This document shows, in pieces, positions 36,282 through 46,917 of a DNA stretch of 64,000 nt. The stretch is from a virus (lineage: Duplodnaviria; Caudoviricetes), in the IMG/VR virus record IMGVR_UViG_3300046473_000190, positions 8,965 to 72,964 of that record. The stretch is one strand, 5' to 3'. A program made the position numbers and the translations under genes. The stretch's first letter is position 1. Each line of letters starts with the position of its first letter. The notes below the pieces were generated by a model, which saw nothing but the letters and a program-made list of their open reading frames with translations, had not been told where the DNA came from and did no database searches.

Positions 36282-36412
36282 TTCCCCGACGTGGCGGGGC
36301 CCCAATGCTCCGGGGGTAGCCACGACAGAGTCCAGCGGGCGGTGACTCTGTTTCGGAAACAACACCCGCAGCGGCGGCGCTTATCTCCTGTGAGTGGCCG
36401 CCGCAACTCAAT

Positions 36413-36512
36413 TGTGATGTCGTCACAAAATGTATGATTGTTCGATAATGGCTGTTGACAGTAGAGGGTTTATTGCCCTATAGTGGTTTCATCAGAACGG
36501 GAGATGGACATG
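36413..36512 (+). promoter_or_regulatory. sigma70 promoter/operator/RBS module, copy 1
   Basis: TGTGA-N5-TCACA, TTGACA 36455, N18, TATAGT 36479, GGAGATGGACATG. Confidence 0.85.
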
Positions 36513-36644
36513 AGCAAAGCAAAACCCTGCAAACCCTGCAAACTCTGTAAACTCTGTAAGCGCCCCACTCTAGCTAAGGATCAAATCTGCGACCGGCATT
36601 ATATGGATAAGCCTCGCAGTCTCCCGCTGCCGTCACGCAAATGA
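36510..36644 (+). CDS. Cys/Lys-rich 44 aa peptide (KPCKPCKLCKLCK)
   Basis: First ORF after promoter copy 1; four tandem 9-mers 36522-36557. Confidence 0.55.
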   Translation: MSKAKPCKPCKLCKLCKRPTLAKDQICDRHYMDKPRSLPLPSRK

Positions 36645-36668
36645 ACCCCCACCCAACAGGAGACGGAC

Positions 36669-36779
36669 ATGACAGACAACCTATTCGACCTAGTCCTTCA
36701 GATGCGCGCCGAACAAGCCAAAAAAGACCAAGAAGCCAAGGACGCCATCGAGCAGGAAAAGAAGGCACGGGCGCGCTAA
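36669..36779 (+). CDS. 36 aa helical peptide ending RAR-stop
   Basis: AACAGGAGACGGACATG leader. Confidence 0.6.
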   Translation: MTDNLFDLVLQMRAEQAKKDQEAKDAIEQEKKARAR

Positions 36780-36808
36780 TGCGCCCCAACCAACAGGAGA
36801 TGGACATG
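36768..36808 (+). repeat. junction repeat CGGGCGCGCTAATGCGCCCC-N-CCAACAGGAGA(T/C)GGACATG, copy 1
   Basis: Also at 37371-37411 and 38270-38314. Confidence 0.9.
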
Positions 36809-36877
36809 TTGGCCTTGGGCGACATGGTATCTTATGGTTCCCCAAAGTATCTTAGTGGCGCCTTATGGCTCCGATGA
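36806..36877 (+). CDS. 23 aa peptide (may be non-coding remnant)
   Basis: Consensus RBS leader but very short. Confidence 0.3.
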   Translation: MLALGDMVSYGSPKYLSGALWLR

Positions 36878-36899
36878 ATGCCATAAAACACGCCGCAAA

Positions 36900-36998
36900 T
36901 GTGATGTCATCACAAAATGTATGATTGTTTGGATATGGCTGTTGACATAGAGGGTCTATCGCCCTATAGTGGTTTCATCAGAACAGGAGATGGACATG
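36900..36998 (+). promoter_or_regulatory. sigma70 promoter/operator/RBS module, copy 2
   Basis: TGTGATGTCATCACA, TTGACA 36942, N17, TATAGT 36965. Confidence 0.9.
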
Positions 36999-37190
36999 AC
37001 CAAGATTGAAAAGCAAGTCTGGAACAAGACCCACCGCGATTACCGCTCAATTATCAATGGCGAGCGCTACGTGATGCAATACAACTCACAAAGTGGCGGC
37101 AGCGAATTGGTTCCCTTGTCCTCTTGCCGCAAAGTCACCGAAGCTTACGAGGAATTGAGCCACCGTGCCGGTATTGTGGCCGCCGACTAA
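36996..37190 (+). CDS. hypothetical protein, 64 aa
   Basis: Follows promoter copy 2. Confidence 0.65.
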   Translation: MTKIEKQVWNKTHRDYRSIINGERYVMQYNSQSGGSELVPLSSCRKVTEAYEELSHRAGIVAAD

Positions 37191-37202
37191 CAGGAGAGGG
37201 AC

Positions 37203-37382
37203 ATGACCAATCAGGAAATCATCGACAACCTCTACGAAGCCCTTAATGGCCTGAGCATCGGCTGGCAAATGACTAATCTGAAGGACGAGGCCAAACGCCA
37301 ACACCTGCAGGCTCCGGTAAATGCGGCTATCGCAGCAGTTTCACAGGTTATCGCCGAGTTCGAGAATGGTCGGGCGCGCTAA
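37203..37382 (+). CDS. 59 aa helical protein ending RAR-stop
   Basis: AACAGGAGAGGGACATG leader. Confidence 0.6.
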   Translation: MTNQEIIDNLYEALNGLSIGWQMTNLKDEAKRQHLQAPVNAAIAAVSQVIAEFENGRAR

Positions 37383-37411
37383 TGCGCCCCATCCAACAGG
37401 AGACGGACATG
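37371..37411 (+). repeat. junction repeat, copy 2
   Basis: CGGGCGCGCTAATGCGCCCCATCCAACAGGAGACGGACATG. Confidence 0.9.
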
Positions 37412-37576
37412 ACCGCAACAGATGATCGCCGCAACCTTGTTGAGTTGTTTGATCTTGCCCGCAATATCGCCGGTTTGGATGAACGCTCAATTATGGCAAT
37501 GGACCTGCATACTCTCCGAGCCACATTGCGAGAATACCGCGATCTGGCTCGCGTCATGCTGGAAACAGTTACATAA
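37409..37576 (+). CDS. hypothetical protein, 55 aa
   Basis: Consensus leader. Confidence 0.6.
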   Translation: MTATDDRRNLVELFDLARNIAGLDERSIMAMDLHTLRATLREYRDLARVMLETVT

Positions 37577-37577
37577 A

Positions 37578-37805
37578 ATGACCCCCACCGAATTCCGCTC
37601 CGCTCTAGCCGCCCTTAACCTCTCTCAGGTAGGGGCGGCTAGAGCATGGGGAGTCAACCCGCGCACTGTTCGCGATTGGGCAGACATGAGAGGGAAGGGT
37701 CCACCACCACCTATTCCAGCACTGCTCTCGGAGGTAGTTTGGCTGCGGAATAATGTTCCAGACTATGCTGAGCGGTTTGTTCTCAGCAGAGCGATAAAAA
37801 TGTGA
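37578..37805 (+). CDS. XRE-type helix-turn-helix regulator
   Basis: MTPTEFRSALAALNLSQVGAARAWGVNPRTVRDWA. Confidence 0.8.
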   Translation: MTPTEFRSALAALNLSQVGAARAWGVNPRTVRDWADMRGKGPPPPIPALLSEVVWLRNNVPDYAERFVLSRAIKM

Positions 37806-37898
37806 TGCCGTCACAAAATGTATGATTGTTGGATATGGCTGTTGACATAGAGGGTCTATCGCCCTATAGTGGTTTTATCAGAACGGGAGATGGACATG
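37801..37898 (+). promoter_or_regulatory. sigma70 promoter/operator/RBS module, copy 3
   Basis: TGTGA-N5-TCACA, TTGACA 37842, N17, TATAGT 37865. Confidence 0.9.
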
Positions 37899-38075
37899 AC
37901 CGAACTAGACCTCGACCAAGTATTACTCCCGCAAGTCGCACAGCTTGCAGAAGCGGGTGGCGGGTGGGCAAACTGGAATGATCTTCCCGGCGGCGACGAA
38001 TGGGTACAAGGCGCAATAGACCGTGGCTTGCTGCGCTACGAAGACGGCTTCGTGCAACTGGCAGCCAAATCATGA
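37896..38075 (+). CDS. acidic hypothetical protein, 59 aa
   Basis: Follows promoter copy 3. Confidence 0.65.
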   Translation: MTELDLDQVLLPQVAQLAEAGGGWANWNDLPGGDEWVQGAIDRGLLRYEDGFVQLAAKS

Positions 38076-38140
38076 CTTCACATCTCGGATTAACGGGATG
38101 GCAACTTGGATCAGCAGGACCAACAGAACAGGAGATGGAC

Positions 38141-38281
38141 ATGACCCGCTACCAAGTCACCGAAGGCAAAAACAGGAATTGGGCAGTTCTCGACACCACC
38201 ACCAATGCCCTCGTATTTGAAAGCGACTCTCGGCTGCTCACTTACGACAAACAAGAAGAGTTAACCCAGCGGGCGCGCTAA
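38141..38281 (+). CDS. 46 aa protein ending RAR-stop
   Basis: AACAGGAGATGGACATG leader. Confidence 0.6.
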   Translation: MTRYQVTEGKNRNWAVLDTTTNALVFESDSRLLTYDKQEELTQRAR

Positions 38282-38314
38282 TGCGCCCCTCTAAACCAAC
38301 AGGAGACGGACATG
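38270..38314 (+). repeat. junction repeat, copy 3
   Basis: CGGGCGCGCTAATGCGCCCCTCTAAACCAACAGGAGACGGACATG. Confidence 0.9.
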
Positions 38315-38461
38315 AATGACGAACGCAAAATAATCAAATATCTCGGTTACACCATCGAGCCAGAGAATAGCGGGAACCTATCAATCTACCGCTTTGGCTA
38401 CCTGACTAGCTTTCGCAGCATTGATGAATGCATGCGCTACATCGAATGGAAGGAGGCATAG
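38312..38461 (+). CDS. hypothetical protein, 49 aa
   Basis: Consensus leader; MNDERKIIKYLGYTI. Confidence 0.6.
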   Translation: MNDERKIIKYLGYTIEPENSGNLSIYRFGYLTSFRSIDECMRYIEWKEA

Positions 38462-38463
38462 CC

Positions 38464-38583
38464 ATGAAGGATAACGCCAAGCTCGTGATCCGTGCCGCGC
38501 TCTACGCTGCCTTAGGCTGGGGCGTGATTGCCTTAGTCATTCTCAGTACGGGCGCACATTACGACATTTGGCATGCGAGGTGA
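38464..38583 (+). CDS. small single-TM protein, 39 aa
   Basis: AAGGAGG RBS; hydrophobic helix. Confidence 0.55.
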   Translation: MKDNAKLVIRAALYAALGWGVIALVILSTGAHYDIWHAR

Positions 38584-38682
38584 GACGCTGGTAGCATCAA
38601 AGGGATGAGGTGTTGCTTAACCGCAACACTTTCCTAATATTGTTGCGTAGATAGCCGTCAAGGTGGTAAAGTTTAAGGCGCC

Positions 38683-39153
38683 ATGACAGACACGCTCGAT
38701 ATCAATCGCCCAAAACAAAACACCAAGACGCAAGTACGCCGTGCTGGTAAGGCTAAGCTAGCCCTCATGCTAGAGGCCACAAGAGGCCTAGATATCAGCA
38801 AGTTAGCCGTAGACCATTTGGTCGATGTGCTAGAGTTCTATGCCCGAATGTGTAACGCCGATCCGTCAAATATGGCCTCATGGATGGATAAGCGAGCTGC
38901 AGTAGCCGCTAGGTTAGCACCGTATCAATCGCCCACATTTCAGGCTATTTCCGTAACGGGAAATCAGCAGGATCAGGCCAAACTCGCGCAAATGAGCGAT
39001 GCGGAGTTAGCTATGGCGCTGAAAGCACGGGCTGAAGACCTCGGGATGGAAGTTAAGATACGGTCAAAGCTGGAGTATCGGGCGAAACACTTCGCGCGGA
39101 CGATAGACGAAGAGATCCTCAATGGCCCGCAGCGGGAAGAGAACGAAGGTTGA
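38683..39153 (+). CDS. putative terminase small subunit
   Basis: AAVAARLAPYQSPTFQAISVTG and LAQMSDAEL motifs; upstream of TerL. Confidence 0.5.
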   Translation: MTDTLDINRPKQNTKTQVRRAGKAKLALMLEATRGLDISKLAVDHLVDVLEFYARMCNADPSNMASWMDKRAAVAARLAPYQSPTFQAISVTGNQQDQAKLAQMSDAELAMALKARAEDLGMEVKIRSKLEYRAKHFARTIDEEILNGPQREENEG

Positions 39154-39175
39154 CACCGTGCCAATAACGGTGTCA
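39150..39175. promoter_or_regulatory. palindromic operator overlapping a TTGACA box
   Basis: TGACACCGT-N7-ACGGTGTCA, 9 bp arms. Confidence 0.65.
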
Positions 39176-41101: not shown

Positions 41102-41334
41102 AAGCCGATGACCAAATCTTTACCACTCCCGGCGTTGTTTTAAATCGCATTGCGTCGGTGTTCCACTGTCCGAAGGATCGGATTGAGGAGGTATTGGAGG
41201 AACTTATGGAGCGGCCGATAGAGAGGGCGGCGGGGTCCGAGGCCAGGCTAGCGGTTATTCGGCGGGCTTTGAACACGCCGGAGGCAGCGAGTGTGATTGA
41301 GATGGCGCAGGTGTTTTGGGATGGGGCGAAGTGA
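41098..41334 (+). CDS. hypothetical protein
   Basis: Overlaps both neighbours. Confidence 0.55.
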   Translation: MKADDQIFTTPGVVLNRIASVFHCPKDRIEEVLEELMERPIERAAGSEARLAVIRRALNTPEAASVIEMAQVFWDGAK

Positions 41335-43061
41335 ATATTCAGATTGATACTCAAGCTCTGATTGACGAATGCGATCGCCGCAAGGCCATCGAGGCGCAGT
41401 CGCAGTATGGTTACTACGACAGTGTAGGAATACGACAGTGTGGGTTAATAGCGTTCGTGCGGTATTTCTGGCCGGTGCTCGAGCCCGATGCGCCGTTCAT
41501 CGATGGCTGGCCGCTCTGGGCGATGTGCGAGCATTTGGAGGCCATCACGCGGGGCGACATCATTCGGCTACTGATTAATGTGCCGCCTGGTTTTATGAAG
41601 TCCATGCTGACGAACATATTCTGGCCGGCGTGGGAGTGGGGGGCGATGGGGCATTCGAGCTATCGCTATGTGTGTTTTAGTTATTCGGCCTCGCTGACGG
41701 AGCGCGACAACGACAAGTTCCGGGTGTTGGTGGCGTCGGAGAGGTATCAGGCGCTATATGGGCCGGTTCGCATTGAGGCGGAACGTGCCATCACGCTGGA
41801 GAACAAGACGATAACGAAGGTGAAGAATGTCAGGACGGGATGGAAGCTCGCTTCATCGGTCGGTGGTGTGGGTACCGGCGAGCGCGGGGACAGGGTCATC
41901 ATCGATGACCCTCACAACGTTGTGGAATCGGAGTCGGAAATCGTTAGAGGTGAGACTATCCGATGGTTCCGGGAGTCTGTCAGTTCCCGACTCAATAATC
42001 TTGACACTGGGGCCATTGTCGTCATCGGACAGCGTGTTCACCAGTATGACGTATCTGGCATTATCCAGTCTCAGGATTTCGACTACGAGCATTTGATGAT
42101 TCCGTGGGAGTTGGATCGGGATCGGGTGGTGGACGAGGACGGCAAGCCGTTTGAGACAGCGATAGGCTGGTATGATCCGCGGTTGGACGACGAGGACGGG
42201 GAAGAGGAACCGGCATGGCTGGACAGGTTCAGCGAAAGGGCGATGGATCGGACGCGGCTGGAGATCGGGCCGTATGCGTGGGCGGCGCAGTACCAGCAAT
42301 CGCCTGCGCCGCGTGGTGGCGGATTATTCAAGCGTCATTGGTGGAGGCCGTGGGAAACGAGCGACGGGCGGTATCCCCTTTTCAGCTATGTGATTGCGAG
42401 CCTGGACGTTGCTGTAACCGAAAAAGCGGAGAATAATCCCAGCGGATTTACGGTATGGGGGATATTTCAGCCGGATGACAGCGAGAACCCGGCCATTATG
42501 CTGATTGACGCCTGGCGCAAGCGATTGAACATGCATGGCGATCCGTCGCCGCGGATTATCACGGAAATCCCGCAGATCGGCGACGACCGGCAGACAGTGA
42601 TTAATCGCAACGTAGCCTGGAAGCGGCGGACGAGCGAGGGCTGGGGACTGGTTGAATGGGTAGCTTATACGTGCCGGGTGAGGTGCGCGGATTTGCTGTT
42701 GATTGAATGCGAGAAGGGCGGCATTGTTGCGGCGCAGGAGATGCAGCGGCTTTACGGCGGGGAGAATTGGTCGGTGCATTTGCAGCCTGTGAAGGGGGAC
42801 AAGCATGCGCGGGCGATGGCCGTTGTTCCGACATTTTCGCAGGGCAAGGTATATGCGCCGACCAAGGACTGGGCCGAGATGGTGATTGACGAGATGGAAG
42901 CGTTTCCGAAGCATCGCTATGACGACTTGACGGACTCGACCACGCAGGCCATTCGGTATTTCCGGGATGCCGGATTGGCGCGGACGGACGAGGAAATCCA
43001 AGCGGAGGTCTACGAGCGCGTGCGGCACAAGCCGCAACCGAAGGCTCTTTATCCGGTGTAA
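41331..43061 (+). CDS. terL: terminase large subunit
   Basis: Walker A NVPPGFMKS, Walker B VIIDDPH, YQQSP, C-terminal YDDLTDSTTQA. Confidence 0.92.
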   Translation: MNIQIDTQALIDECDRRKAIEAQSQYGYYDSVGIRQCGLIAFVRYFWPVLEPDAPFIDGWPLWAMCEHLEAITRGDIIRLLINVPPGFMKSMLTNIFWPAWEWGAMGHSSYRYVCFSYSASLTERDNDKFRVLVASERYQALYGPVRIEAERAITLENKTITKVKNVRTGWKLASSVGGVGTGERGDRVIIDDPHNVVESESEIVRGETIRWFRESVSSRLNNLDTGAIVVIGQRVHQYDVSGIIQSQDFDYEHLMIPWELDRDRVVDEDGKPFETAIGWYDPRLDDEDGEEEPAWLDRFSERAMDRTRLEIGPYAWAAQYQQSPAPRGGGLFKRHWWRPWETSDGRYPLFSYVIASLDVAVTEKAENNPSGFTVWGIFQPDDSENPAIMLIDAWRKRLNMHGDPSPRIITEIPQIGDDRQTVINRNVAWKRRTSEGWGLVEWVAYTCRVRCADLLLIECEKGGIVAAQEMQRLYGGENWSVHLQPVKGDKHARAMAVVPTFSQGKVYAPTKDWAEMVIDEMEAFPKHRYDDLTDSTTQAIRYFRDAGLARTDEEIQAEVYERVRHKPQPKALYPV

Positions 43062-44506: not shown

Positions 44507-44696
44507 CCGACCCACTAGGGATGAGATTGTCAAGGTGTTGCGCGATCTTGGCAACCTGCCTGCAGGCAAGTCCTATTGGGGGCCGGGAGATGGTCCAGAC
44601 AATGACGGAATGTGGTGTATCGATTGGGTAGGATGGCCGATTTCTGATTATTTACTAGCGGCGGCTGACGAGATCGAGAAAGCGAAAGATGGCTGA
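44499..44696 (+). CDS. hypothetical protein
   Basis: AAADEIE motif shared with preceding ORF. Confidence 0.5.
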   Translation: MADRPTRDEIVKVLRDLGNLPAGKSYWGPGDGPDNDGMWCIDWVGWPISDYLLAAADEIEKAKDG

Positions 44697-46917
44697 CCCG
44701 GCCCAAGGAATTAGCGTTGTCATCGGCGATGATGAAGCCGATCCGGTCCGGATTGATCCGGTTACCGGCACGGTGGAGCACGATCAGGCCGACGGCAGCG
44801 TTATTGTCGAACTGGACAAGGTACGGAAGAATCGGGAAGGGCAGGCCTTCGACGCTAATCTGGCCGAGAGGATGGACGATAACGAGCTTTCCCGCATTGG
44901 CAACGAATTGCACCAGGCTATTTCGGACGATAACGATTCCCGCGGGAACTGGCTCGAGATAAGGGCGCGGATTATTGATTTCTGTGGCCTGCAGATCAAG
45001 GAGCCGCGGGCCAATGTGGGCGATACGTCAGCGGCCGTCGAGGGGATGTCCACGGTAACCAATCCCTTGTTGCTCGAAGGCATATTGAAGGGATGGGCTA
45101 ATGCCCAAGCGGAACTTCTCCCGAGCGAAGGTCCAGCCAAGATCGACGAACAAGACCACGAAACGCCGCAAAGCGATGAACTCGCGGAGGCATTGGAACG
45201 CGATTTTAATTACTACCTCACGGTCACGGCCACGGAATATTATCCGGATACCAGTCACATGCTCTTGTGGGGTGTCTATCTTGGAGGGTCTGGATTTAAG
45301 AAGATTTATCGTTGCCCTATGCGACGACGTCCCGTCTCCGAAAGCGTTAGCCCTGAAAATCTCATAGTTTCTGATACCATGAAGGACATGCGATCGTGTG
45401 CGCGCATTACGCACCAGATCGAAATGCGCCAGTCCATCATGCAGCGCATGAAGCTTTTGGGGGCCTATCGAGATACGCCGGCCACGACGCCGTCGCCGCC
45501 GACATCGACTGCGGTGGCGCAAGCGGTTGCGGGTGTTCAGGGAACCAGTCCGTCGCCGAGCGGGAAGCGGGAAGCGGATCGGCCATACATGCTTTGGGAA
45601 TGCCAATGCGAACTTGATTTGCCGGATTATGCGCCCAGCGGGTTCAAGGGCGAGGGCATTCCGTTGCCGTATCTGGTGACGCTGGACAAGGACAGCCGGG
45701 AGGTCTTGGCAATTCGCCGGGATTGGAACGAGGACGATGAGGACGCGCAGAGAAAGAGGCTCTACGTCAAGTATCCTTATGTTCCGGGCCCTGGTTTTTA
45801 CGGCACTGGTCTTGGGCATATTCTTGGTAATTGCTCTGCTGCAATGACGGCGGCCTGGCGTGAGGCGCTGGATGCGGGGATGTTTGCGAATTTCCCGGCG
45901 TTTCTGTTGGCAAAGCTCGGTGGCCGGCAAAATACGTCCGATTATCGTCTGGCGGCCGGGACCGGCACCGCCATCGAAACCAATGGCATGCCGATCGGCA
46001 ACGTAGTGACCAACCTGCCGTATCGCGATGTCACGTCCGGATTATTGACCCTGATCGACAAGATTACCGCGCAGGCGAAGGAACTTGGCGGCACGGCCGA
46101 CATTCCGGCCTCGGAGGGTGTGGCCAATGTGCCGGTAGGAACCATGCTGGCGTCGATCGAGCAGGCGACGAAGGTCATGAGTGCCGCCCACAAGGGCATG
46201 CATCAGGCGCAGGCCGAAGAATTGCAGATGCTGGTGGACTTGTTTCGCGATCATCCGGAAGATTTTTGGCAACAGAACAAGAAATGCAAAGGATTTTGGG
46301 ATGAAGCCAAGTTCAGGGCCGCCCTGGAGAATTGCTCCTTGGTGCCGCGAAGCGATCCGAACACTCCCTCGCACATCCATCGTGTTGCCAAGGCACTCGC
46401 CTTGGTTCAGATGCTCAACTCACCGGCCTTGGCTCAAGTCATGTCGGCCAAAGAGGTTGCTTTACGGGCGCTGGCCGTGTTGCGGGAGGATCCGACGAAC
46501 CTGATTGTCGACCCGATGCCGCAGCCTGCGGGCGGGCAGGGAGCCGCGGCCGACCCGTTGGTCGGGCAGGCGCGCATGCTGTCGGCGCAAGCGCAGATTG
46601 CCAAAGTGCAGCAGGAGGGCCAGCAGGGTCAGATCAAGACGCAATTGGATCAGCAAAAACTGCAGGTCCAGAAGGATATCGCCACATCGCAATTGGCGCG
46701 CGAGTTCGTCATTCATCGCGGCGATCAGGTTAAGGAAGAGGCGGCGCAGCAGCATGTGCAGCATGAGGCCGATCGCGAACATGGGCTGGGAACGGCGCAA
46801 TACGGACTCGATGTTGCCCGGCTGGGGTACGAACGGCAACAGGCCGACAGGGAACACGCCCTGAATGTTCACGAGGCATTGAATCCGCCGGAACCCGCCA
46901 AGCCGAAAAGCAAATGA
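44689..46917 (+). CDS. portal protein
   Basis: 742 aa after TerL; HPLL-like NPLLLEG, GSGFKKIY, FVKY-like YVKYPYVPGPGFYGTGL, Gln-rich barrel tail. Confidence 0.85.
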   Translation: MADPAQGISVVIGDDEADPVRIDPVTGTVEHDQADGSVIVELDKVRKNREGQAFDANLAERMDDNELSRIGNELHQAISDDNDSRGNWLEIRARIIDFCGLQIKEPRANVGDTSAAVEGMSTVTNPLLLEGILKGWANAQAELLPSEGPAKIDEQDHETPQSDELAEALERDFNYYLTVTATEYYPDTSHMLLWGVYLGGSGFKKIYRCPMRRRPVSESVSPENLIVSDTMKDMRSCARITHQIEMRQSIMQRMKLLGAYRDTPATTPSPPTSTAVAQAVAGVQGTSPSPSGKREADRPYMLWECQCELDLPDYAPSGFKGEGIPLPYLVTLDKDSREVLAIRRDWNEDDEDAQRKRLYVKYPYVPGPGFYGTGLGHILGNCSAAMTAAWREALDAGMFANFPAFLLAKLGGRQNTSDYRLAAGTGTAIETNGMPIGNVVTNLPYRDVTSGLLTLIDKITAQAKELGGTADIPASEGVANVPVGTMLASIEQATKVMSAAHKGMHQAQAEELQMLVDLFRDHPEDFWQQNKKCKGFWDEAKFRAALENCSLVPRSDPNTPSHIHRVAKALALVQMLNSPALAQVMSAKEVALRALAVLREDPTNLIVDPMPQPAGGQGAAADPLVGQARMLSAQAQIAKVQQEGQQGQIKTQLDQQKLQVQKDIATSQLAREFVIHRGDQVKEEAAQQHVQHEADREHGLGTAQYGLDVARLGYERQQADREHALNVHEALNPPEPAKPKSK

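What the first reader, a model, noticed from the sequence alone, without database searches (positions are those of the whole stretch)
36653..38583. Cassette-like array of tiny genes joined by a repeat that supplies stop codon, hairpin and RBS
Seen: CGGGCGCGCTAATGCGCCCC (GGGCGC/GCGCCC stem) occurs three times (36768, 37371, 38270). Each time it encodes R-A-R-stop of an otherwise unrelated ORF and is followed by CCAACAGGAGA(T/C)GGACATG, which starts the next ORF. The AAC(A/G)GGAGA(T/C/G)GGACATG leader precedes nine ORFs of 23-64 aa. Inference: the repeats are recombination joints that shuffle or acquire expression-ready mini-genes, by analogy with integron attC or T4-type repeat-flanked cassettes, possibly via the adjacent ERF/YqaJ system. 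Cargo probably host-takeover or anti-defence proteins.
Basis: partly seen in the sequence, partly recalled or inferred. Interest (0 to 1): 0.8.

Follow-up and report, generated by a model that had tools for sequence, protein, structure and literature searches.

The report
Repeat-framed early mini-gene array in phage
An uncultivated soil phage packs eleven tiny, mostly unknown genes into three look-alike operons that reuse one promoter, one ribosome-binding leader and one hairpin, and its relatives keep these signals but carry different genes between them, a style of phage gene shuffling already known from T4-like phages and seen here in a new lineage.

Summary
The 20-nt hairpin occurs 3 times and the 17-nt leader 9 times, all on the + strand within 36496-38314 and nowhere else in the 72,964-bp genome. 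These make the region three operons, each with the order promoter, gene, gene ending in RAR-stop, hairpin, gene(s).

Four independent relatives keep the flanks (YqaJ and HNH on the left, a 156-aa gene from 38607 on the right). Their arrays are 0.86 to 3.9 kb long and hold almost entirely different ORFs. Shared sequence inside the array is confined to the promoter and leader repeats, an HTH gene and one ORF, so homology breaks at or next to the repeats.

Promoter copies resemble each other more within a genome than between genomes. The hairpin itself is absent from every relative. The genome has no tyrosine or serine recombinase. The array is identical in at least 10 contigs of the same phage.

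My verdict is a hyperplastic early-gene region built from standard expression signals that also act as homology patches for slow modular exchange. It resembles PeSLs of T4-like phages and SAS/ESAS of Cluster K mycobacteriophages, and it is not integron-like. The operon layout with a trailing XRE-type HTH gene resembles acr-aca loci. The leader also forms the 5'UTR of early promoters in about 20 otherwise dissimilar viral contigs.

The parts
36284..36373 (+). Left border: match to Rfam RF03044 (Proteo-phage-1 RNA), followed by a GC hairpin at about 36371-36404
   Evidence: 41.9 bits against a gathering score of 42. The same element sits directly upstream of the first promoter in L115 (43.3 bits), L121 and L122. 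It is 84-89% conserved, whereas the array to its right is not.
36409..36512 (+). Promoter repeat P1: palindrome TGTGATGTCGTCACA at 36413-36427, -35 TTGACA at 36455, inverted repeat TAGAGGG-N7-CCCTATA running into the -10 TATAGT (ends 36484), a ~19-nt UTR and the leader
36896..36998 (+). Promoter repeat P2: palindrome at 36900-36914, -35 at 36942-36947, inverted repeat at 36948-36968, -10 at 36965-36970
   Evidence: It is 95% identical to P3 and 90% to P1.
37797..37898 (+). Promoter repeat P3: palindrome at 37801-37815, -35 at 37842, -10 ending at 37870
36496..38314 (+). Nine copies of the 17-nt leader AAC(A/G)GGAGA(N)GGACATG, starting at 36496, 36655, 36792, 36982, 37189, 37395, 37882, 38127 and 38298. 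Three are promoter UTRs and six are internal.
   Evidence: The RNA around the leaders is predicted to be unstructured.
36768..36787 (+). Hairpin copy 1 (GGGCGC / GCGCCC stem with the O2 stop codon in the loop)
37371..37390 (+). Hairpin copy 2, holding the stop codon of O5
   Evidence: With its leader it forms a 49-nt module 90% identical to copy 1 (family D4).
38270..38289 (+). Hairpin copy 3, holding the stop codon of O9
36510..36877 (+). Operon 1 ORFs: O1 36510-36644 (44 aa, Cys-rich), O2 36669-36779 (36 aa), O3 36806-36877 (23 aa, weakest coding signal)
36996..37805 (+). Operon 2 ORFs: O4 36996-37190 (64 aa), O5 37203-37382 (59 aa), O6 37409-37576 (55 aa), O7 37578-37805 (75 aa, XRE/Cro-type HTH)
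   Evidence: O7 fold and relatives. An O4 homologue is present in L122.
37896..38583 (+). Operon 3 ORFs: O8 37896-38075 (59 aa), O9 38141-38281 (46 aa), O10 38312-38461 (49 aa), O11 38464-38583 (39 aa, hydrophobic)
38607..38634 (+). Right border: homology to all relatives resumes at 38607. Hairpin GTGTTGC-TTAACC-GCAACAC at 38610-38629 is followed by TTTCC.

Best explanation
This is the hyperplastic early-gene region of a lytic, uncultivated soil phage. Three strong host-type (sigma70) promoters drive three short operons of ORFan mini-genes. Each promoter carries an upstream palindrome and an inverted repeat that overlaps the -10 element.

Every gene except O7 and O11 is fitted with the same translation-initiation leader, which is the ~19-nt 5'UTR of the promoter module reused internally. 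In each operon the second gene ends inside an identical GC stem-loop. I infer this stem-loop acts on the RNA as an intercistronic attenuator or 3'-end stabiliser. It has no U-tract and does not cover the Shine-Dalgarno sequence.

The XRE/Cro-type HTH protein O7 is the last gene of operon 2. It probably feeds back on the promoters through the -10-overlapping inverted repeat, as Aca proteins do in acr-aca operons.

The repeats are therefore expression signals first. Because they are the only near-identical tracts (17-105 nt) between otherwise unrelated genes, they also serve as homology patches. General recombination, by the phage's own ERF/YqaJ pair or by the host's RecA, exchanges, duplicates or deletes expression-ready gene units at these patches over evolutionary time, as shown for PeSLs in T4-like phages.

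Shown here: the repeats, the operon anatomy, cassette turnover between relatives, breakpoints at the repeats, and greater similarity of promoter copies within a genome than between genomes. Inferred: the recombination mechanism, the RNA role of the hairpin, the HTH target, and an anti-defence or takeover function for the cargo.
For: The three repeats are the best promoter matches in 14 kb.

The leaders are unstructured, and the stem-loop forms without pairing the Shine-Dalgarno sequence.

The ORFs look coding: frame 0 has the best codon likelihood for all 11, and GC by codon position is 59/41/60 against about 62/46/65 in the large genes. None has a family except O7.

Turnover between relatives: the array between HNH and the 156-aa gene is 0.86 kb in L121, 1.8 kb in L115, 2.4 kb in the window and 3.9 kb in L122. 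In L153 the HTH gene abuts the 156-aa gene. Only promoter and leader repeats, O7 and O4 are shared.

Breakpoints: homology to L115 ends at 36506 inside leader 1. It reappears only over 36636-36673 (leader 2) between unrelated ORFs. O4 homology to L122 runs from 36974, in the UTR just after the -10, to 37183, 6 nt before leader 5. In L122, O4 has the UTR but no promoter. A 24-aa membrane mini-gene follows P1 in L121 but P2 in L122.

Concerted evolution: the window's promoter copies are 90-91% identical to each other and 75-83% to those of other genomes. L122 P1 and P2 are 90% identical to each other.

ERF and YqaJ lie 1-2 kb upstream.

Regulator: among the close relatives the AGGG...CCCTATAG inverted repeat is present wherever the HTH gene is present (window, L115, L122) and is missing in L121, the only HTH-less array. 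The repeat, or a shorter form of it, is also present in the HTH-bearing contigs L019 and L097. The O7 model has pLDDT 85 and an XRE fold. It aligns to Aca2 with TM 0.75, and its profile hits Aca10 and Aca1 at E 0.004-0.008.

Precedent: crossovers between PeSLs were mapped between the -10 and the ATG and in the stem-loop (PMC2839356). Rad52-like phage recombinases promote exchange at short diverged homology (PMC3945230).
Against: Conserved regulatory elements are detected as the homologous islands whatever process replaced the genes between them. Breakpoints at the repeats therefore cannot separate recombination in the repeats from illegitimate recombination filtered by selection for intact genes.

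The array is identical (99.7-100% nt) in at least 10 contigs from different samples.

The hairpin is in none of the four relatives.

The only candidate recombinant contigs, L123 and L169, switch parent inside conserved flanking genes at shared 32- and 45-nt words, not at the repeats. They could also be assembly chimeras.

No RNA data exist for this phage.
Confidence: 0.55

Rival explanations
1. The repeats are expression signals only. The leader, hairpin and promoter are held constant by selection, for example as a translation-control or RNA-processing site like SAS/ESAS or the T4 RegB/RegA targets. They play no part in recombination. Gene turnover comes from illegitimate recombination plus selection for intact gene boundaries, or from homologous exchange in the conserved flanking genes.
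For: The same 17-mer, with the same promoter geometry, occurs once each in about 20 dissimilar viral contigs. Some of these share only 56-59% identical YqaJ proteins with the window. This points to sequence-specific functional constraint well beyond a Shine-Dalgarno core. The array is stable across samples. The candidate recombinants L123 and L169 cross over in the HTH gene and the 156-aa gene, not in the repeats. SAS/ESAS are likewise conserved in front of unrelated genes with no claimed recombination role (PMC3203893).
Against: Promoter copies cluster by genome rather than by position, which requires conversion or duplication between copies. In L122, O4 keeps the post -10 UTR but has lost the promoter. 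The 20-nt hairpin is identical in three junctions of one genome and absent from relatives, so it spread recently inside this lineage.
Confidence: 0.3
2. The hairpin is a DNA site, a small palindrome bound by a dimeric protein as a roadblock or stoperator-like element. Alternatively the shared C-terminal Arg-Ala-Arg is itself the selected feature.
For: It is a perfect 6+6 inverted repeat placed once in each operon, 358-474 nt downstream of the promoter start and always on a stop codon. Stoperators in Cluster A mycobacteriophages also overlap stop codons and act on transcription (named in PMC3203893 and PMC9283540).
Against: No candidate binding protein co-varies with it. Relatives put different GC stem-loops in the same place, between a stop codon and a leader (L115 2022-2043, L122 3866-3882). 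Conservation of structure without conservation of sequence favours an RNA role. Stoperators are asymmetric and number 20-30 per genome.
Confidence: 0.08
3. The array is a tandem triplication of one ancestral operon (promoter, a, b, hairpin, c) whose genes diverged beyond recognition. On this view there is no cassette exchange.
For: The order promoter, gene, gene-RAR-stop, hairpin, gene occurs three times. Promoter copies are 90-95% identical and hairpin copies 100%.
Against: No pair of ORFs at equivalent positions shows similarity, although their regulatory flanks are 90-100% identical. ORF lengths differ. Relatives carry unrelated ORFs in the same slots, and the same ORFs (O4, the 24-aa membrane gene) behind different promoters.
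Confidence: 0.05
4. The array is an integron-like, site-specific cassette system in which the hairpin acts as an attC-type site.
For: Internal genes are promoterless, one-directional and separated by a small palindrome.
Against: No tyrosine or serine recombinase exists anywhere in the complete genome. The stem is a perfect 6-bp pair rather than a 57-141-nt imperfect attC. Only 3 of 10 junctions have it. Relatives with equally variable arrays lack it.
Confidence: 0.02

Closest known systems
PeSL (promoter-early stem-loop) cassettes of T4-like phages (Arbiol et al. 2010, PMC2839356; Comeau et al. 2014, PMC4122927)
   Same: Both have repeated strong sigma70-type early promoters with an AT-rich upstream part, GC stem-loops and Shine-Dalgarno regions that flank small ORFans in a hyperplastic region. 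In both, related phages differ by insertion, deletion or replacement bounded by these motifs. No dedicated recombinase is present, and general phage recombination acts on patches shorter than 50-100 bp. Crossovers were mapped between the -10 and the ATG, the same interval where O4 of L122 lost its promoter.
   Different: Here the stem-loop is not part of the promoter element. It sits 360-470 nt downstream on a stop codon. Most genes share one standardised leader and lack a promoter of their own. The phage is an unrelated ~73-kb lineage (best TerL match to a cultured or deposited phage is 41%). Mini-circles and terminator activity are untested.
Start-associated sequences (SAS) and extended SAS of Cluster K mycobacteriophages (Pope et al. 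2011, PMC3203893)
   Same: Both are short asymmetric repeats containing the AGGAG core a few bases before ATG starts. Both occur in one orientation only, only in non-structural genes, and in front of unrelated gene families across related genomes. About half of SAS, and 3 of 9 leaders here, have an inverted repeat immediately upstream. The upstream gene's stop codon can lie inside the conserved sequence.
   Different: The sequence differs (GGGATAGGAGCCC against AACAGGAGAYGGACATG), as do the host phylum and the phage group. Here the leader is also the 5'UTR of a repeated promoter and is clustered in 1.8 kb rather than spread over half a genome. The function of SAS is itself unknown.
acr-aca operons: anti-CRISPR genes followed by an HTH repressor gene (PMC9410906, PMC8633003)
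   Same: Both have a strong early promoter carrying inverted repeats, one to several small variable ORFan genes, then a conserved small XRE-type HTH gene as the last gene. The unit promoter, variable ORF(s), HTH recurs in L019, L045, L060, L097, L115 and L122 with different upstream ORFs. Profile and fold matches to Aca10, Aca1 and Aca2 are weak.
   Different: No ORF matches a known anti-defence protein. The matches to Aca proteins are at the level of generic XRE folds. DNA binding is untested. Only one of the three operons ends in the HTH gene.
Integron gene cassettes with attC sites
   Same: Both are arrays of promoterless, co-oriented, unrelated small genes separated by palindromic sites.
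   Different: There is no IntI, no attC architecture and no attI, and the palindrome is not conserved among relatives. Exchange, if any, depends on homology and is not site-specific.

Membership tests
PeSL modular-shuffling cassettes | Repeated strong sigma70-like early promoter with an AT-rich upstream region | tested here: met
   Three repeats with TTGACA-17/18-TATAGT (11 of 12 matches) and an A/T-rich -60 to -45 segment.
PeSL modular-shuffling cassettes | A stem-loop that is part of the same composite element and acts as a terminator | tested here: not met
   The hairpins lie 358-474 nt downstream of the promoter starts, next to internal leaders. They have no U-tract, and the terminator scan does not report them. 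Terminator activity cannot be tested here.
PeSL modular-shuffling cassettes | Located in a hyperplastic region of small ORFans. Indels and replacements between related phages are bounded by the motifs. | tested here: met
   Array length is 0.86-3.9 kb in four relatives. Shared sequence is confined to the repeats, O4 and O7, and breakpoints fall in or next to the repeats.
PeSL modular-shuffling cassettes | Mini-circles or deletions formed by recombination between neighbouring motifs | tested here: inconclusive
   Contigs of four runs show no repeat-to-repeat joint, but contigs drop rare variants. Raw reads or PCR would be needed.
SAS/ESAS (Cluster K mycobacteriophages) | Asymmetric conserved sequence with the AGGAG core 3-7 bp before the start codon, with ATG preferred and one orientation | tested here: met
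   All 9 copies are on the + strand, all 9 use ATG, and GGAG lies 6 nt before the ATG.
SAS/ESAS (Cluster K mycobacteriophages) | Restricted to non-structural genes and conserved in front of unrelated gene families in related genomes | tested here: met
   It occurs only in the array. It is present in L121 (2 copies), L122 (7), L115 (2, in variant forms) and as a promoter UTR in about 20 other contigs.
SAS/ESAS (Cluster K mycobacteriophages) | The family's own consensus GGGATAGGAGCCC and a Cluster K phage background | tested here: not met
   The sequence is different and the phage is unrelated. It works like SAS/ESAS but is not a member.
Integron cassette array | IntI-type tyrosine recombinase | tested here: not met
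   PF00589 and PF00239 are both absent from the complete genome, and the control genomes were positive.
Integron cassette array | attC site at every cassette boundary, conserved as a structure among arrays | tested here: not met
   Only 3 junctions have the 18-nt perfect hairpin, and it is absent from L115, L121 and L122.
acr-aca type operon | Variable small genes followed by a conserved HTH gene in one operon behind a strong promoter | tested here: met
   In the window the order is P2, O4, O5, O6, O7. The same logic holds in L115, L122, L019, L045, L060 and L097 with different upstream ORFs.
acr-aca type operon | The HTH protein belongs to a known Aca family and binds inverted repeats in the promoter | tested here: inconclusive
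   Profile hits to Aca10 (E 0.0036) and Aca1 (E 0.006), and a fold match to Aca2 with TM 0.75, but no Foldseek E at or below 0.001. The inverted repeat TAGAGGG-N7-CCCTATA overlaps the -10. Among close relatives it occurs with the HTH gene in the window, L115 and L122 and is missing in HTH-less L121. It or a shorter form also occurs in L019 and L097. Binding is untested.
acr-aca type operon | At least one upstream gene is a demonstrated anti-defence protein | not testable with these tools
   No Pfam or PHROG family matches O1-O6 or O8-O11. No anti-defence library was available.

The most novel reading that the evidence does not exclude
The promoter-UTR module is a portable expression dock shared by many unrelated uncultivated phages. 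In this lineage it has been amplified into an array where ORFan genes are captured as units the length of a transcript, running from the transcription start to a 3' hairpin. The internal leaders are exactly UTR-length pieces that abut a hairpin. Capture would be homology-directed, by ERF/YqaJ, at 17-49-nt junction modules. That would make the array a recombinase-free functional analogue of an integron. The invariant 17-mer would also serve as the recognition site of a dedicated factor that switches the whole early gene class on or off.
Probability: 0.15. Interest if true: 0.8.

Novelty: new variant of a known kind. Interest (0 to 1): 0.5.

Why it matters
PeSL-type shuffling has been documented only in T4-like myoviruses, and the function of SAS/ESAS in mycobacteriophages is still unknown.

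This array combines both features in an unrelated soil phage lineage in a compact 2.2-kb form. One promoter, one leader and one hairpin are reused around eleven ORFans, and natural relatives show the genes being swapped.

That gives a small, tractable system for two tests. One is whether standardised expression signals double as recombination linkers. The other is why a 17-nt leader stays invariant while the proteins around it diverge.

The array also flags eleven early mini-proteins plus an Aca-like regulator as candidates for host-takeover or anti-defence screening.

The finding is not categorically new.

Tried and rejected
**Searches that found nothing useful**
- Nucleotide searches of 50,697 deposited phage genomes found nothing. 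I tried the 6-kb region, the 46-nt promoter-leader, and two leader-bearing loci.
- The exact 18-nt hairpin occurs in four other IMG/VR contigs. The contexts are unrelated and no leader follows. Two copies sit in intergenic regions followed by T-rich sequence and two lie inside other ORFs, so I treat them as chance occurrences of a simple GC hairpin.
- The operator pattern in the metagenome collection gave only 20-23-nt matches in unrelated contigs.
- The promoter-leader pattern matched one MAG contig among 185,579 species genomes, so the host stays unknown.
- Distant HTH homologues in L151 and L152 lie in other contexts, next to an integrase or in a replication region, and tell nothing about the array.

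**Population data**
- Contigs of four runs laid on the region showed no repeat-to-repeat joint. The 'skips 137' and 'goes back 827' joints are explained by an L115-type phage in the same sample.
- Contigs L123 and L169 switch from 100% L115-type to 100% window-type at shared 32- and 45-nt words. They are either real recombinants or k=31 assembly chimeras, and I could not decide.
- P0017, P0019 and P0027 turned out to be the same phage, not intermediate relatives.

**Other dead ends**
- A cluster that placed O6 with 341-554-aa proteins is spurious, since the sequences do not align.
- Paralogy among the ORFs was rejected.
- An N-type boxB/nut reading of the hairpin was considered from memory only. 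I saw no boxA-like element and did not test it.
- The upstream palindrome is not a CRP site. It is TGTGA-N5-TCACA, whereas the CRP consensus has N6 (established knowledge).
- The ORFs downstream of the leader in ten other contigs are ORFans too.
Full report
**What the window is.** The window is bases 8965-72964 of a 72,964-bp IMG/VR virus record that CheckV rates complete. Virion genes, a large terminase (41316-43061) and a portal (44689-46917) are recognisable. The best terminase match among 50,697 deposited phage genomes is 41%. The DNA is found in 24 rhizosphere or soil metagenome runs. The genome has no tyrosine or serine recombinase, so the phage is probably lytic. The host is unknown. 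The Rfam match described below suggests a proteobacterium.

**Checking the observation.** Every statement of fact in the finding holds.
- The 20-mer CGGGCGCGCTAATGCGCCCC occurs three times, with 0.02 copies expected.
- The 17-mer leader occurs nine times, with 0.08 expected.
- Both occur only on the + strand, only between 36496 and 38314, and nowhere else in the genome.
- Each hairpin supplies Arg-Ala-Arg-stop to an ORF that begins at a leader ATG (O2, O5, O9). The stop codon lies in the loop.
- The ORFs show no paralogy.
- All have the codon-position signature of real genes. O3, at 23 aa, is the weakest.

**What the finding left out.** Three ~105-nt repeats (36409-36512, 36896-36998, 37797-37898) each carry four elements:
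- a palindrome, TGTGATGYCRTCACA, centred about 70 nt before the predicted transcription start;
- an A/T-rich stretch;
- a near-consensus TTGACA-17/18-TATAGT promoter;
- an inverted repeat, TAGAGGG-N7-CCCTATA, that runs into the -10 element.

The leader of the first gene in each operon is simply the ~19-nt 5'UTR of this promoter. The region is therefore three operons with one plan: promoter, gene a, gene b ending in RAR-stop, hairpin, gene c, and sometimes gene d.

O7 (37578-37805) is the last gene of operon 2 and the only ORF with a family. It is an XRE/Cro-type HTH protein.

**Borders of the array.** On the left, after the HNH gene, lies a 90-nt match to Rfam RF03044 (Proteo-phage-1 RNA, 41.9 bits against a cut-off of 42) followed by a GC hairpin. 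The same element precedes the first promoter in three relatives. On the right, homology to all relatives resumes at exactly 38607, at a terminator-like hairpin.

**Relatives.** Four independent relatives were recovered through the flanking genes: L115 (IMG/VR), L121 and L122 (ENA contigs of 73 and 50 kb) and L153.
- Flanking genes are syntenic at about 70-89% nt identity.
- Between the HNH gene and the 156-aa gene the arrays measure 0.86 kb (L121), 1.8 kb (L115), 2.4 kb (window) and 3.9 kb (L122).
- blastn and tblastx find nothing shared inside except the promoter and leader repeats, the HTH gene and O4, the last in L122 only.

The slot between the HTH gene and the 156-aa gene differs in each genome:
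- the window has P3, O8, O9, hairpin, O10, O11;
- L115 has a second promoter type plus a 136-aa ORF;
- L122 has that promoter type plus two other ORFs;
- L153 has nothing there.

A 24-aa membrane mini-gene follows the first promoter in L121 and the second in L122. In the window O4 follows P2. In L122 it keeps the UTR from just after the -10 element but has unrelated sequence where the promoter should be.

Homology ends in or beside the repeats.

**Evidence for exchange between repeat copies.** Promoter copies are more alike within a genome than between genomes. In the window they are 90-91% identical to each other, in L122 90%, and between genomes 75-83%. This requires conversion or lineage-specific duplication. 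The 20-nt hairpin is identical at three junctions of this genome and absent from every relative, so it spread recently within this lineage.

**Limits on the recombination claim.**
1. Conserved signals will always appear as the islands of homology. Breakpoints at the repeats therefore cannot by themselves separate recombination in the repeats from illegitimate recombination filtered by selection.
2. The array is identical (99.7-100% nt) in at least 10 contigs of the same phage from different samples. The contigs laid on the region show no repeat-to-repeat joints. Any shuffling is slow.
3. The only candidate recombinants are contigs L123 and L169. They switch between the L115 type and the window type inside the conserved HTH gene and 156-aa gene, at shared 45- and 32-nt words. 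They may be assembly chimeras. Both phage types do occur in the same sample, so co-infection is possible.

**Why the integron analogy fails.** There is no recombinase. The hairpin is an 18-nt perfect palindrome rather than an attC site. Only 3 of 10 junctions carry it, and relatives lack it.

**What the hairpin probably is.** It folds as a 6-7-bp GC stem, has no U-tract and leaves the Shine-Dalgarno sequence free. Relatives place different GC stem-loops between a stop codon and a leader (L115 2022-2043, L122 3866-3882). Position is conserved but sequence is not, which points to a role in the RNA, such as attenuation, processing or 3'-end protection. A role as a DNA recombination site is less likely. 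This is inference, because no RNA data exist for this phage.

**The leader is not private to this lineage.** Of 97 IMG/VR loci that contain the 17-mer, most look like chance or unrelated families. About 24 loci, forming at least 20 clusters at the nucleotide level with GC 50-65%, carry it as the UTR of a strong promoter with the same geometry. TTGACA lies about 56 nt and the -10 about 33 nt before the ATG, followed by (T/C)CATC(A/G)N and the leader, often continuing as ATGACC.
- The spacers between -35 and -10 carry lineage-specific inverted repeats.
- The downstream genes are small ORFans.
- In four of these loci an O7-family HTH gene is the second or third gene.
- Some of these contigs share only 56-59% identical YqaJ proteins with the window.

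The leader can therefore stay invariant while proteins diverge. There is an ascertainment caveat, because I searched for the exact 17-mer. Seven other YqaJ relatives have no exact copy. In all these contigs the module is single. Only the window's lineage has amplified it: 9 copies in the window, 7 in L122, 2 each in L121 and L115. The internal leaders are UTR-length pieces, 18-22 nt between hairpin and ATG.

**Regulation and cargo.** The O7 model (pLDDT 85) is a five-helix XRE fold. Its nearest solved relatives include HigA2, Aca2 (TM 0.75), Aca1, Aca10, Aca7 and Cro proteins, none at a convincing E-value. The -10-overlapping inverted repeat AGGG...CCCTATAG is present in the HTH-bearing close relatives (window, L115, L122), with related or shorter forms in L019 and L097. 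It is absent from the one HTH-less array, L121. HTH homologues at 34-43% identity (L045, L060) sit behind different palindromes. This fits autoregulation of the kind described for acr-aca operons (PMC9410906, PMC8633003). It is consistent with the data but unproven, and no ORF matches a known anti-defence protein.

**Comparison with what is known.** The closest systems are PeSLs and SAS/ESAS.
- PeSLs of T4-like phages are repeated early promoters plus stem-loops that flank ORFans and mediate modular shuffling by homologous recombination. Crossovers were mapped between the -10 and the ATG (PMC2839356, PMC4122927).
- SAS/ESAS of Cluster K mycobacteriophages are a Shine-Dalgarno-containing repeat before ATG starts of non-structural genes. 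Half of them have an upstream inverted repeat, and stop codons sometimes lie inside the repeat (PMC3203893).

The present array works like both but is a member of neither. Its stem-loop is not part of the promoter element, its sequences differ, and the phage lineage is unrelated. Phage ERF-type (Rad52-like) recombinases are known to promote exchange at short diverged homology (PMC3945230), and such a gene pair lies 1-2 kb upstream.

**Verdict.** The feature is real and well defined. It is a new variant of a known kind.

Noticed in passing
window 36284-36373 (also L115 1550-1639, L121 5331-5415, L122 3400-3489): A match to Rfam RF03044 (Proteo-phage-1 RNA, 41-43.3 bits against a gathering score of 42), followed by a long GC hairpin. 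It sits directly between the HNH region and the first array promoter in all four genomes. It is far better conserved than its surroundings.
   Followed up: partly
IMG/VR loci L011, L014, L019, L022, L023, L027, L034, L035, L039, L044, L045, L047, L053, L055, L057, L058, L060, L069, L070, L072, L073, L079, L083, L097: The window's 17-nt leader is the 5'UTR of a fixed-geometry strong promoter in about 20 otherwise dissimilar viral contigs. Each has its own inverted repeat between -35 and -10 and small ORFans downstream. No cultured phage has it, and it occurs in only one MAG contig among 185,579 bacterial and archaeal species genomes.
   Followed up: partly
L122 2130-2940; L115 1299-1547; L121 5140-5322; L138 7826-9941; L135 8600-9900: Relatives carry one to seven tandem small coiled-coil paralogues between the HNH gene and the RNA motif. 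Their C-terminal ends are conserved (…AKAKG or …RRALEGK) and contain the next gene's Shine-Dalgarno sequence and an ATGA stop/start overlap. The window has none.
   Followed up: partly
L123 (Logan contig, 1080 nt) and L169 (Logan contig, 1104 nt): Each contig is 100% L115-type on one side and 100% window-type on the other. They switch at exact words of 32 nt (in the 156-aa gene) and 45 nt (in the HTH gene) that both phages share. Together they would describe a cassette swap by crossovers in the flanking genes, but they may be k=31 assembly chimeras.
   Followed up: partly
L122 4293-4487 and 5222-5345: L122 holds a full HTH gene and, about 0.8 kb downstream, a remnant in which the start of the gene is fused to its C-terminal third. 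A promoter and other ORFs lie between them. L122 also has many apparent frameshifts, perhaps from long-read assembly errors.
   Followed up: partly
window about 36520-36560: O1 contains a 9-nt tandem repeat that encodes KPC-KPC-KLC-KLC, giving a Cys-rich 44-aa peptide with a weak WRC-like match (E 0.012).
   Followed up: no
window 39151-39175: A 9-bp stem-loop begins with the TGA stop codon of the 156-aa gene. It is the only other strong hairpin in the window that sits on the stop codon of a long ORF.
   Followed up: no
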